From a virus, in the UHGV virus genome UHGV-2192570: DNA of 21,366 nucleotides, one strand, 5' to 3'. Position numbers: made by a program. This document shows, in pieces, positions 1 through 3,000 of the stretch. Every line of letters begins with the position of its first letter. Position 1 is the stretch's first letter.

Positions 1-3000
1 ATGCGTATAGGACAAAATCGTTTTTTGGGGGCTATACACATGTTGCTTTCAGACCTTGCTATCCGCCGCGCGAAGCCAAAAGAGAAAGCCTATACACTCA
101 ATGACGGCAACGGGCTTTCGTTACTCATTGAGCCTAACGGTTCGAAGGGCTGGCGATTGCGATACAGGTTTGCAGGTAAGCCCAAAATGTTGTCGCTGGG
201 TGTTTATCCTGAGGTGTCCCTTTCTGATGCCAGGGCGGCAAGGGATGAAGCCAAAAGGCTTATCGCTGGTGGAGTTAATCCAAGTGATGTGAGAAAAGCC
301 CATAAGAGAGAACAGGCGAGCAAATTCGGTAACACCTTTGAGGCGATCGCCCGTGAGTGGTATGAAAAACGCCTGGACAGATGGTCACAATCATATGCCG
401 CAGAGATGATTGATACGTTTGAGAAGGACGTATTCCCGTATATCGGCAGCAAACCGATAGCAGAAATAAAACCGATGGAATTGCTCGCGGTTCTCTCCCG
501 TCTTAATGACCGTGGCGCAACTGAAAAATTGCGTAAGGTTCGCCAGCGATGTGGCGAAGTGTTCCGGTACGCAATAATTACCGGACGCGCTGAATATAAC
601 CCCGCTCCTGATCTGGCAAGCGCATTTGCACCACACAAAAAAGAGCATTACGCGTATCTGAAAGTTGATGAGCTACCGGAATTTTTCCGCGTTTTTAATA
701 CGTACACCGGAAGCCAGATCGTCAAGCTGGGTATGCGATTATTGATTCTTACAGGACTCCGCCCAGGTGAATTGCGGCAGGCAGAGTGGCAGGAGATTGA
801 TTTTGATAATCGTCTGTGGGAAGTGCCGAAAGAACGAATGAAAATGCGCCGTCCTCATTGCGTGCCGCTTTCAGAACAGGCGATAGCTATTCTGGAACAA
901 CTGAAACACATGACGGGGCAGTATCCGTTTATTTTCCCTGGTCGAATACAGCACAGTAAACCGATGAGTGAAATGGCGATGAACGTGCTTATTCGTCGTA
1001 TTGGTTATGCAGGGCGTGTTACTGGTCATGGGTTCCGGCACACCATGAGTACGATTTTGCACGAGCAGGGGTATAACTCCGCATGGATAGAAACGCAGCT
1101 GGCGCACGTCGATAAAAACTCGATCCGTGGCACATACAATCACGCGCAATATCTGGACGGACGGCGGGAGATGCTCCAGTGGTACGCCGACTATATGGAC
1201 TCACTGGAACAGGGCGGAAACGTGGTACATGGCAAGTTTGGAAAATGTGGATGACTGGTTGAGTATACAGTAGTAGACTTTGAGCGACTAAATAACAGGC
1301 TGTGTCTAGGGTCGCTCCCGAAACCCCGTACACCTCTGCGGACTGGCACAGCCACCACTACAGAGAGTGCGAGGTGTGCACATGCCGGTTGTGAATGATT
1401 TCCCTGACTTAAGTCATTGGTTTACAGTGCAGGAGTTTACTATTACTCAAGCTGCGTTATTGCTGTCAGGTATTGATCCTCTCGACTACCCAACTCTGGA
1501 GATGGTCAAAGAGGAAAAACACGAACGATGGAGAATGGCATATGGGTTTGCTTATGGAATGGTTACTGCAATTCGACGCGGTGTCTTAACTCCCGTTCTG
1601 TGCGTTGCGTATGATTGGGGGGATATGCGTCGTTTAACCCCAGCAGAGATGATGGATCGTTCAAATAATATATCCATGGACGGAACAATTATTACCCGTT
1701 ATTCATTACAGGAATGGGTAAAAAATGAGAAAGTTGATTATGTAAGACCCTCTCGCTCTATATCGGATAAGGAGATTAAGCCATCTAACCAATCAGTAAT
1801 AATTGATGCCGAATCTAGCGTGATTAATTCTGAAGAAACAGTATTGCTGACTTATGGTCATAAGAGCGAAGGTCTTGAATATGTAGAAGACGCAATAAGA
1901 GAACTTTGGGCAACATATGATCCAGATAATCAACAAACAGCCCCTACAAGAAATGATGTTGTTGAATACCTGAAAGGCAGGGGAGCGGGGCAGAACATGG
2001 CCGAGGCTGTAAACCTGATACTACGCCCCACTGGCTTGCAGCAAGTTGGAAGAAGGAAAAGAAAAACAAATAGTTAAATAGTGCCCACCCTTCGTAAAAA
2101 AAGGTGGCACTATTTGCTCAAAACTCTTTTGCTTATGGCGAGAAATCATAGTTAAGCGTGCGTTTTCTTTGCTTATTGATACTGGAATGGTGGCAGCATT
2201 ATTAAAATAATAGTGGGCTCTATTCCATTGAAATAGTACCCACCATTAAAAATAGTACCCACCTATAAATATGTTTTCCTTTTATGCATCATTGTAGACG
2301 GTTATAGACGTTACGAGGATTGAATATGTCAAATAACTTACTTCGTCTTTCTGATGTTATGCGCCGTACTGGTTACGGTCGCGCTTGGATTTATCGCCTG
2401 ATCAGCCTGGGGCGCTTCCCTAAACCTGTAAAAATTGGTTCCCGCTCCGTGGCTTTTATTGAAAGCGAAGTCGATGAATGGATTAACCAGCGTATTGATG
2501 CTTCTCGCAACAACGCCGCGTAATAATCTTTTGGGAGGGGGATATTCTCCCCCAGCACTAAACCTGATCCGATAGCAGGAGTTTTCAATGAAACGTCCGA
2601 ATATGCCCGTACAGGGGCAGGGCTTCGTTCAGCCTGAAATCAGCCAGAACGATATATTGATTCGCCACAAAGCAGAGTCGCGTATTGATTCCCGCGTTAT
2701 TTCTGAGCGAGCAGGAATACAACACGAAAGTATCATTGCGACGATTAAATCTCATCAATCCAGATTGCGCGAGCTTGGCTCACTGCCTCGCCAGTCAGTC
2801 AAGGAATTAACCTATTTGAAATCGGGAAAATCTGGCCGCAAGCGCGGTCGTCCTGAAATTAGTTATTTGCTGAATGAGCTACAGCTTGACTATCTGTTAC
2901 GCGTTATCCGTGGGCGTGACGCAGAACGTATCAACCAGTTCAAGCTGGATGTTACGAAGGCATTCGCGAAGCATCGCGCCGCTGAACCAGTCCGTCGCGA

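What the first reader, a model, noticed from the sequence alone, without database searches (positions are those of the whole stretch)
2077..2270. Five-copy 13-bp operator array controlling alpA
AATAGTRCCCACC occurs three times directly and twice inverted within 190 bp, overlapping a TATAAAT -10-like element just upstream of alpA. The first inverted pair also forms a 12-bp hairpin straight after the upstream stop codon. This looks like a repressor-binding array for the island's induction switch, yet no repressor gene is evident nearby.
Basis: seen in the sequence. Interest (0 to 1): 0.4.

Follow-up and report, generated by a model that had tools for sequence, protein, structure and literature searches.

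The report
Conserved operator array gating satellite alpA
A cluster of five to six short repeated DNA sites in front of the master-switch gene (alpA) of a phage-satellite island is real and conserved from E. coli to Pseudomonas, and it always travels with the C-terminal domain of the uncharacterised gene just upstream, which is therefore the likely missing regulator of the switch.

Summary
AATAGTRCCCACC occurs exactly three times (2077, 2232, 2251; none expected by chance). There are two imperfect inverted copies and a degenerate sixth copy. All lie in the 248-bp gap between an unannotated 231-aa ORF (1382-2077) and alpA (2326-2523).

In more than 20 related int-ORF-alpA loci, from Enterobacterales to Pseudomonas and Methylophilaceae, the core GTRCCCACC is the most enriched word in this gap: 7.4 sites per kb against 0.22 per kb elsewhere. 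Site positions are conserved: one or two at the ORF's stop codon, and three at about -72, -94 and -120 from the alpA ATG. The last one abuts a TATAAT-like -10.

The array follows the ORF's C-terminal helix-turn-helix-like domain, not AlpA, integrase or the replicase:
- Islands with the same AlpA and integrase but no ORF lack the array.
- A natural chimera with a different C-domain carries a different repeat.
- A protein with an unrelated N-terminus but the same C-domain keeps the array.

Best reading: a cognate operator array through which this protein gates the alpA promoter, probably by repression. Binding is inferred, not shown.

The parts
1382..2077 (+). ORF236 (231 aa from ATG 1382; GTG 1367 is the mechanical ORF start). 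Candidate cognate regulator. N-domain residues 1-125, disordered linker about 135-160, C-terminal three-helix HTH-like domain plus basic tail (residues about 158-231, nt 1853-2074).
2077..2092 (+). Site S1, AATAGTGCCCACCCTT. It overlaps the last base of the ORF236 stop codon.
   Evidence: Exact 13-mer. PWM score 18.2. A site at 0 to +3 from the stop codon recurs in L004, L005, L196, L011 and L015.
2100..2115 (-). Site S2, AAATAGTGCCACCTTT on the minus strand (core GTGCCACC, one base shorter). It forms the inverted pair and hairpin with S1.
   Evidence: The same shortened variant, GTGCCACC, occurs at the equivalent site of L196 and in L199.
2186..2203 (-). Degenerate sixth site X, AATAATGCTGCCACCATT on the minus strand, about -140 from the alpA ATG.
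   Evidence: Direct-repeat family D2 with S2. Not called by the ungapped PWM, so this is the weakest member.
2209..2224 (-). Site S3, AATAGAGCCCACTATT on the minus strand, -117 from the ATG.
   Evidence: 2 mismatches. PWM score 11.3. Relatives read GTGCCCACT.
2232..2247 (+). Site S4, AATAGTACCCACCATT, -91 from the ATG. It covers the position where a -35 element would lie.
   Evidence: The equivalent site lies at -94 or -95 in L004, L005, L006, L195, L196 and L198.
2251..2266 (+). Site S5, AATAGTACCCACCTAT, -72 from the ATG. It fills the promoter spacer and runs into the -10.
   Evidence: A site at -72 to -76 followed by TATWWT is conserved in L003-L006, L196, L009 and L015.
2264..2269 (+). Putative -10 hexamer TATAAA of the alpA promoter. 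No recognisable -35 lies 17 bp upstream (CACCAT).
   Evidence: Sequence reading. Alignment column conserved across genera. The consensus promoter scan does not call it because the -35 is missing. The transcription start is not mapped.
2326..2523 (+). alpA (65 aa, Phage_AlpA PF05930), the gene controlled by the array.
   Evidence: Pfam E = 2.5e-20.

Best explanation
The repeats are the cognate operator array of the protein encoded immediately upstream (ORF236, 1382-2077). That protein is constitutively made together with integrase. Its C-terminal helix-turn-helix-like domain and basic tail bind the asymmetric GTRCCCACC sites.

Three to four sites spaced about two helical turns apart cover the -35, spacer and -10 region of a weak alpA promoter that lacks a -35. 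A convergent pair lies at the end of the regulator's own gene, about 130-170 bp upstream. That pair probably stabilises the complex by cooperative binding or looping, and may block read-through from int and ORF236.

Occupancy most likely keeps alpA, the satellite's master activator and excision factor, switched off. The N-terminal domain is well folded and evolutionarily exchangeable. It is proposed to be the part that senses the helper phage and releases the DNA.

Status of each step:
- Shown: the array exists, is conserved in sequence and position, and co-varies with the C-domain.
- Inferred: binding by ORF236, the direction of control (repression), looping, and helper sensing.
For: (1) Unbiased word counting in 15 diverged int-ORF236-alpA gaps puts CCCACC on top: 19 found against 1.56 expected, in 10 of 15 loci. 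The consensus is G-T-R-CCCACC-Y-W-T.

(2) GTRCCCACC with up to 1 mismatch occurs at 7.4 per kb in the gaps against 0.22 per kb in the rest of about 126 kb of loci. It is at chance level in 50 kb of E. coli chromosome.

(3) Positions are conserved while the rest of the gap is unalignable. Sites lie at -72, -94 and -117 to -125 from the alpA ATG and at 0 to +3 and +23 to +29 from the ORF stop. Loci not used to build the matrix confirm this (L196, L198). In Pseudomonas the first site lies inside the coding tail (APTRE), so the constraint is on the DNA.

(4) The proximal site always abuts a TATWWT -10.

(5) Natural deletion: L019 and L020 share Int (97% aa) and the AlpA DNA-binding part (identical). 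In them, window 1280-2343 (ORF236, array and promoter) is replaced by 536 unrelated bp without sites.

(6) Natural domain swaps:
- L194 has an N-domain 79-82% identical to CCCACC-type loci, but a C-domain 75-77% identical to L008. It carries L008-type repeats (AAAC-N4-CTRCTGTT, five copies) and no CCCACC.
- L196 has an unrelated 226-aa N-terminus with the same C-domain (66% identity, recognition helix identical). It keeps the CCCAC array at the same positions.

(7) AlpA and Int identities do not follow motif type. The array is identical in islands with different primase families.

(9) The C-domain recurs at the C-terminus of many proteins with unrelated N-termini, as expected for a DNA-binding module joined to variable sensor domains.
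Against: - No direct evidence of binding.
- The C-domain coding DNA is physically contiguous with the array. Co-inheritance as one recombination block would therefore give the same co-variation without any functional link.
- The direction of control is uncertain. The promoter has no -35, which is typical of activator-dependent promoters. In PICMI satellites a different gene in the same slot between int and alpA is needed for excision, a positive role (PMC10803314).
- In Pseudomonas-type loci the last site lies upstream of a TTGATT -35-like element rather than over the -10.
- The experimentally studied EcCICFT073 lacks this module, so published data do not bear on it directly (PMC6092414).
Confidence: 0.55

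Rival explanations
1. The sites are bound by ORF236, or by a helper-phage protein, acting as an activator. The promoter has no -35 and needs a factor bound at about -37 and upstream to recruit RNA polymerase. The array would then be an upstream activating array rather than an operator for repression.
For: - There is no -35 match 17 bp upstream of TATAAA.
- alpA promoters of Gram-negative PICIs are silent without a helper and are switched on by an unknown helper function (PMC6092414, PMC11773190).
- In PICMI satellites the gene between int and alpA is required for excision (PMC10803314).
- In Pseudomonas-type loci the last site sits just upstream of a TTGATT -35-like hexamer.
Against: - In Enterobacterales one site fills the spacer and runs into the -10 (-25 to -10), and another covers the -35 position. 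That placement normally excludes RNA polymerase.
- No clusters of the motif were found in any viral contig, as might be expected if a phage regulator used the same sites on its own genome.
Confidence: 0.15
2. The array is functional but is bound by a protein other than ORF236, such as a host factor (H-NS-like silencing of this AT-rich gap) or a helper-phage protein. Its association with the ORF236 C-domain would then reflect only physical adjacency on the DNA.
For: - The C-domain coding sequence and the gap are contiguous, so they would be inherited together.
- The gap is 31-37% GC against 47-55% in the flanks.
- H-NS silences the alpA promoter of the Shewanella prophage CP4So (abstract of PMC8034616, listed; full text not read).
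Against: - The conserved element is a GC-rich 9-mer, not an AT-rich tract.
- The motif is kept from E. coli to Pseudomonas and Methylophilaceae, yet it switches to a different repeat in two enterobacterial loci (L008, L194) whose hosts are close to those of CCCACC-type loci. That points to an island-encoded specificity determinant.
- The only island protein that changes with the motif is the ORF236 C-domain.
Confidence: 0.12
3. The sites are AlpA's own binding sites for the positive autoregulation described for PICI alpA promoters.
For: - AlpA activates its own promoter in EcCICFT073 (PMC6092414).
- AlpA/Xis-type proteins typically bind arrays of short asymmetric repeats (general knowledge).
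Against: - L019, L020 and L021 encode AlpA identical from residue 8 onward (apart from a single S-to-P substitution in L021). Their alpA upstream regions have no array: no PWM hit, and at most one lone 1-mismatch 9-mer about 260 bp upstream.
- The core motif is unchanged in Pseudomonas loci whose AlpA is only about 34-35% identical.
- L008 and L194 have AlpA as close to the window's (65-66%) as CCCACC-type loci do, yet they carry a different repeat.
Confidence: 0.08
4. The inverted pairs act at the RNA level, as hairpins or terminators in read-through transcripts from int and ORF236 (attenuation or antitermination control of alpA). They would not be protein-binding DNA sites.
For: - The S1/S2 hairpin folds at -17.9 kcal/mol, z = -3.2.
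- In L195 the two proximal sites form an 11-bp stem followed by T7, which looks like a terminator.
- The island uses P4-type RNA immunity elsewhere (C4/isrK).
Against: - No U-tract follows S1/S2 and no terminator is called.
- S4 and S5 are direct repeats.
- At conserved positions the orientation of sites differs between loci: at -91/-94 it is + in the window and - in L004-L006, and at -117 to -125 it is - or +. That is incompatible with a conserved RNA fold.
- No Rfam family matches 2077-2325.
Confidence: 0.07
5. The repeats are integrase arm-type sites, replication iterons or a packaging (pac/cos) site.
For: - Short asymmetric repeats in both orientations are typical of all three.
Against: - The array lies about 2.3 kb from the tRNA-side att core.
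- The real arm next to the tRNA carries a different repeat, RTCTAC in six copies, and no GTRCCCACC.
- The array is identical in islands with DUF927 primases and with a different primase family. It is far from the replicase gene.
- ORF236 lies in the integration/regulation zone, not the late zone, and its HTH is C-terminal, unlike TerS.
Confidence: 0.03

Closest known systems
SaPI Stl / Gram-positive PICI Rpr master repressor with its stl-str operator region
   Same: Both are satellite-encoded DNA-binding proteins placed between int and the excision/replication operon, and both hold the satellite's first lytic promoter. In both, a DNA-binding domain is joined to variable domains that (in Stl) bind different helper-phage proteins. 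Both are independent of SOS.
   Different: There is no sequence or fold similarity. The gene here is co-directional with its target, not divergent. The HTH-like domain is C-terminal. The target is alpA in a Gram-negative, P4/PICI-like element. Repression and helper-induced release are not demonstrated here.
Gram-negative PICI alpA switch (EcCICFT073, EcCIMP1): AlpA activator, positive autoregulation, induction by an unknown helper function
   Same: Same element type (int, alpA, Bro-zone Rha/AntA genes, primase) and the same controlled gene. The window's island fits the four-zone organisation described in PMC10111431.
   Different: EcCICFT073 has int followed directly by alpA (alpA is ORF2), so it lacks ORF236 and this array. 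Islands with the same AlpA but no ORF236 lack the array. This is therefore an alternative regulatory cassette, not the published one.
Phage P4 PLL/PLE region (late promoter in front of the AlpA homologue Vis, CI RNA immunity)
   Same: A promoter directly upstream of the alpA/vis homologue heads the operon that contains the C4-type immunity RNA, which is present here at 5754-5841. In P4 that promoter is governed by DNA-binding regulators (from my own knowledge of P4).
   Different: From memory and not tested: P4 PLL uses Delta/Ogr sites (TGT-N12-ACA), Vis and P2 Cox boxes. P4 has no ORF236 homologue in this position. The repeat here is unrelated to those sites.
Multi-site cooperative operators of temperate phages (lambda OR/OL with CI)
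   Same: Several sites are spaced by whole helical turns over a promoter. A second cluster lies 130-170 bp away and could loop to it.
   Different: The sites here are asymmetric and occur in both orientations. There is no divergent promoter pair and no similarity to CI.
PICMI 'iolg/icg' genes (genes of unknown function between int and alpA, essential for excision; PMC10803314)
   Same: Same genomic slot between int and alpA. [quoted passage not shown] Function is unknown in both cases.
   Different: ORF236 does not overlap int: a 127-bp gap holding the int-alpA RNA motif separates them. No repeat array has been reported for PICMIs.

Membership tests
Repressor/operator module of the Stl/Rpr (PICI master repressor) kind | Satellite-encoded sequence-specific DNA-binding protein encoded next to the sites it binds | tested here: inconclusive
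Repressor/operator module of the Stl/Rpr (PICI master repressor) kind | Sites overlap the core promoter of the satellite's first induced operon | tested here: met
   S4 covers the -35 position and S5 covers the spacer up to the TATAAA. The placement is conserved in at least 8 genera. The transcription start itself is not mapped.
Repressor/operator module of the Stl/Rpr (PICI master repressor) kind | Divergent repressor and target promoters | tested here: not met
   int, ORF236 and alpA are all on the + strand.
Repressor/operator module of the Stl/Rpr (PICI master repressor) kind | Derepression by a helper-phage protein binding the repressor | not testable with these tools
   This needs genetics or biochemistry. 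The only indirect hint is the exchangeable N-terminal domains.
AlpA autoregulatory sites | Sites co-occur and co-vary with the AlpA DNA-binding domain | tested here: not met
   An identical AlpA HTH occurs without the array in L019-L021. The same core occurs with AlpA only about 34-35% identical in Pseudomonas. L008 and L194 carry a different repeat with an equally similar AlpA.
Integrase arm-type sites | The same repeat flanks the att core within a few hundred bp | tested here: not met
   The arm between tRNA-Gly and int in L001 carries RTCTAC in six copies and no GTRCCCACC. The array lies about 2.3 kb from the core.
Replication-origin iterons | Repeats co-vary with the replicase and lie beside it or an AT-rich unwinding region | tested here: not met
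   The array is 97-99% identical in islands with a DUF927 primase (window, L001) and with a different 'DNA primase family protein' (L002). It lies 4.3 kb upstream of the primase gene.
Intrinsic terminator (S1/S2 hairpin) | GC-rich stem followed by a U-tract | tested here: not met
   The stem is present (-17.9 kcal/mol), but the tail is UUUGCUC and the terminator scan finds 0 sites.
Known structured RNA (Rfam) | Match to a covariance model within 2077-2325 | tested here: not met
   The only match in 1200-2600 at E <= 1 is int-alpA RNA at 1299-1366, outside the array.
SOS (LexA) operator | CTGT-N8-ACAG box in the promoter | tested here: not met
   No match with up to 1 mismatch between 1712 and 10354.

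The most novel reading that the evidence does not exclude
ORF236-family proteins are the missing master regulators of a widespread subset of Gram-negative PICI/P4-like satellites. They would be modular proteins with two parts. A conserved C-terminal DNA-binding domain locks the alpA promoter through a GTRCCCACC-type operator array. Interchangeable N-terminal domains would each sense a different helper-phage protein. That would make them functional analogues of Stl that arose independently, and it would explain how helper phages switch on alpA.
Probability: 0.3. Interest if true: 0.7.

Novelty: new variant of a known kind. Interest (0 to 1): 0.55.

Why it matters
How helper phages switch on alpA in Gram-negative phage satellites is an openly stated unknown. 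[quoted passage not shown] PMC10803314 asks how the helper phage activates the early regulon.

This locus supplies a concrete, testable cis element and a candidate trans factor for one widespread regulatory cassette. The protein family has 1063 representatives at 50% identity and spans Enterobacterales, Pseudomonas and beyond. Nature has already provided domain swaps and a deletion variant to guide experiments.

The finding would also give a function to a protein family with no annotation, and a defined operator/regulator pair usable in engineered satellites.

Tried and rejected
- A 16-bp palindrome, AATRG-N6-CYATT, was suggested by comparing the window with L003 alone. I dropped it once 15 further loci showed that the conserved part is the GC-rich core and that the flanks are lineage-specific.
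- The Pseudomonas aeruginosa 'AlpA' antiterminator and its binding element GGGACG-N5-GGTA belong to a different, longer Q-like protein with an unrelated site (PMC9371919, PMC7969949).
- Helper-phage search: AAATAGTACCCACC and AAATAGTGCCCACC in IMG/VR gave 114 and 58 contigs, all but one with a single hit. Only three weak clusters of 1-mismatch cores turned up, in unrelated contigs. That is chance level.
- Fold and profile searches for ORF236 gave nothing significant: Foldseek against PDB and BFVD, the PDB sequence profile, Pfam, PHROGs, NCBIfam and PADLOC. The AFDB library was unavailable. The single-sequence AF2 model was useless, pLDDT 40.
- Pfam scans of ten relatives that share only the C-domain found no known N-terminal domain.
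- There is no IHF site between the two site clusters and no LexA box.
- The SD-sequestering leader hairpin seen in other genera is not significant in the window (z = 0.19).
- No attR or tRNA fragment lies in the window.
- P0029 could not be located on a contig.
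Full report
**1. The observation**

The window opens with a P4-type tyrosine integrase (40-1254). It is followed by a 231-aa ORF with no family assignment (ATG 1382, stop 2075-2077), then a 248-bp gap, then alpA (2326-2523, PF05930). After alpA come Rha- and AntA-type 'Bro zone' genes and a DUF927 primase.

Inside the gap the 13-mer AATAGTRCCCACC occurs exactly three times on the + strand, at 2077, 2232 and 2251. None is expected in shuffles.

- One inverted copy (2212-2224) has two mismatches.
- The other (2103-2115) fits only with a one-base deletion.
- A sixth, degenerate inverted copy lies at 2186-2203.

The first pair forms a hairpin (10/10 bp plus extension; -17.9 kcal/mol, z = -3.2). 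It starts on the last base of the stop codon but has no U-tract, and it is not called as a terminator. The last copy abuts TATAAAT (2264-2270). So the description is correct, with the inverted copies being imperfect.

**2. What kind of element this is**

Close relatives (92-96% identical over window 1255-2600) sit next to tRNA-Gly beside actS/xdhA in 18 of 5,426 complete E. coli genomes. A more distant E. coli relative lies at tRNA-Thr.

Rfam finds P4-type immunity RNAs (isrK at 5653-5729, C4 at 5754-5841) and the 'int-alpA RNA' motif at 1299-1366. The layout matches the integration / Bro / replication / late zones described for Gram-negative PICIs (PMC10111431).

In such satellites AlpA is the activator whose expression triggers the cycle:
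- It activates its own promoter.
- It is switched on by the helper phage through an unknown function.

The same question is left open for PICMI satellites (PMC10803314).

**3. Conservation**

The upstream ORF ('ORF236') defines a family without any Pfam, PHROG, NCBIfam or PADLOC match. It has 43 clusters at 90% identity and 1063 representatives at 50% identity.

Fifteen species-representative loci all show int - ORF236 - gap of about 120-260 bp - AlpA-like gene. They come from Enterobacter, Serratia, Erwinia, Arsenophonus, Gilliamella, Pseudomonas, Spongiibacteraceae, Methylophilaceae and Zymobacter.

- Without any prior motif, the most enriched hexamer in these gaps is CCCACC: 19 found against 1.56 expected, in 10 of 15 loci.
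- The aligned sites give G-T-R-CCCACC-Y-W-T. The conserved part is therefore the GC-rich core. The AATA prefix is an E. coli-lineage feature.
- The core with up to 1 mismatch occurs at 7.4 per kb in the gaps and 0.22 per kb elsewhere in the loci.
- It occurs at 0.24 per kb in 50 kb of E. coli chromosome.
- It is at chance level in the rest of the window.

An iterated weight matrix finds 47 sites in 15 gaps, at a threshold that 10% of shuffled gaps reach once.

Positions are conserved:
- In Enterobacterales, sites lie at -72, -94 and -117 to -125 from the alpA ATG, about two helical turns apart.
- One or two further sites lie at 0 to +3 and +23 to +29 from the ORF236 stop.
- Loci not used for training (L196, L198) reproduce these positions.
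- In Pseudomonas the first site lies inside the coding tail, so the constraint acts on the DNA.
- The -72 site is always followed directly by TATWWT.

**4. Who binds?**

Several candidates can be tested against natural variation.

AlpA:
- Three E. coli islands at the same tRNA have Int 95-97% identical and AlpA identical from residue 8 (one residue differs in L021).
- In them, window 1280-2343 is replaced by 536 unrelated bp. They have no ORF236 and no array.
- Conversely, Pseudomonas loci keep the core with AlpA only about 34-35% identical.

Integrase: the true arm next to the tRNA carries a different repeat (RTCTAC, six copies) and no GTRCCCACC.

Replicase: the array is identical in islands with different primase families.

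ORF236:
- Two loci, L008 and L194, carry a different five-copy repeat (AAAC-N4-CTRCTGTT) with the same overall layout.
- L194's ORF is a natural chimera. Its N-domain is 79-82% identical to CCCACC-type loci. Its C-domain is 75-77% identical to L008, against 50-54% to the others.
- The repeat type follows the C-domain. AlpA and Int similarities do not.
- In L196 an unrelated 226-aa N-terminus is fused to the same C-domain (66% identical, putative recognition helix NMAEAVNLILRP identical). The CCCAC array is present at +3, -125, -94 and -72.

**5. Mechanism proposed**

ORF236 binds the array through its C-domain.
- The promoter-proximal sites occupy the -35 position, the spacer and the edge of the -10 of a promoter that has no -35. 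The most economical reading is therefore occlusion, that is repression, of the alpA promoter.
- The distal convergent pair would add cooperativity or looping and might hinder read-through from int and ORF236.
- The exchangeable N-domain is a plausible sensor of the helper phage.

Only the existence, conservation, placement and co-variation of the array are shown. Binding, the sign of regulation, looping and sensing are inferred.

The main caveat is that the C-domain coding DNA and the array are adjacent, so co-inheritance alone could produce the co-variation.

An activator role is a serious alternative, for three reasons:
- The promoter lacks a -35.
- In PICMI a different gene in this slot has a positive role.
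- In Pseudomonas-type loci the last site lies upstream of a -35-like hexamer.

**6. Comparison with known systems and novelty**

Functionally the closest analogue is the Stl/Rpr master repressor of Gram-positive PICIs. There is no homology to it, the genes are co-directional rather than divergent, and the HTH is C-terminal.

The published Gram-negative model island EcCICFT073 lacks this module, since alpA is its second ORF (PMC6092414). P4's PLL/Vis region is positionally analogous but uses other regulators (from memory).

I found no paper describing this protein family or this repeat. I therefore rate it a new variant of a known kind: a regulator/operator cassette in a setting where no such regulator has been identified.

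**7. Verdict**

- Observation: confirmed.
- Interpretation: partly supported. It is an operator-type array at the alpA switch, but a strong candidate regulator gene lies immediately upstream, and the helper-phage motif search was negative.
- Interest: moderate to fairly high for phage-satellite biology, because it turns an open question into a set of simple experiments.

Noticed in passing
window 1299-1366 (+): The Rfam 'int-alpA RNA' motif (RF02996, 38.6 bits against a gathering score of 35.8) lies between the int stop and the ORF236 start. This stretch (window 1255-1382) is what matches about 100 other E. coli genomes at 85-90% identity. It is therefore much more widespread than ORF236. Here ORF236 and the array sit between this RNA motif and alpA.
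   Followed up: partly
window 5653-5841 (+): isrK (52 bits) and C4 antisense RNA (72 bits), that is P4-type immunity RNA genes, lie inside a long and evidently spurious 677-aa ORF (4033-6066). The island thus combines PICI-like gene order with P4-like RNA immunity.
   Followed up: no
L001 2625-2740; window 2294-2309 (-) and 1263-1278 (-): The attL-side arm between tRNA-Gly and int carries six RTCTAC repeats, probably integrase arm-type sites. An inverted pair of the same word (CGTCTAC / CGTCTAT) lies in the alpA leader just upstream of the ribosome-binding site. ATAGACG there is conserved in L003-L006, L196 and L198. Another copy follows the int stop codon. The spaced-pair pattern RTCTAC-N4-RTCTAC (up to 1 mismatch) matches twice in the window against 0.19 expected. 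Integrase might also touch the alpA leader.
   Followed up: partly
L004 3905-3935, L005, L006, L195 3445-3480, L009 3774-3809 (alpA leaders): A hairpin that sequesters the alpA Shine-Dalgarno sequence is kept through compensatory changes: CTCGTAA/TTACGAG, CTCCTGAAT/ATTCAGGAG, and GTTACCTTG/CGAGGTAAC. This suggests translational control of alpA. In the window itself the leader fold is not significant (z = 0.19).
   Followed up: partly
window 1373-1381 (-): A one-mismatch core (GTGCACACC) overlaps the ribosome-binding site and start codon of ORF236. It is also present in L001, hinting at autoregulation. No equivalent site is seen at the ORF start in the other genera.
   Followed up: partly
L194 2501-3229; L196 1560-2462; proteins: The ORF236 family is modular. 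L194 is an N-domain/C-domain chimera of two lineages. P0043 (L196) and many library proteins carry the C-domain behind unrelated N-termini that have no Pfam match.
   Followed up: partly
L195 3388-3432: In the Pantoea locus the two promoter-proximal sites form an 11-bp stem followed by T7, a terminator-like structure directly upstream of alpA. In some lineages the same sequences might therefore also act at the RNA level.
   Followed up: no
window 1-21366: No tRNA gene and no copy of the tRNA-Gly 3' end (attR) lies in the window. It starts 39 bp upstream of int, and the island's right end is either beyond 21.4 kb or uses a short repeat that was not detected.
   Followed up: partly
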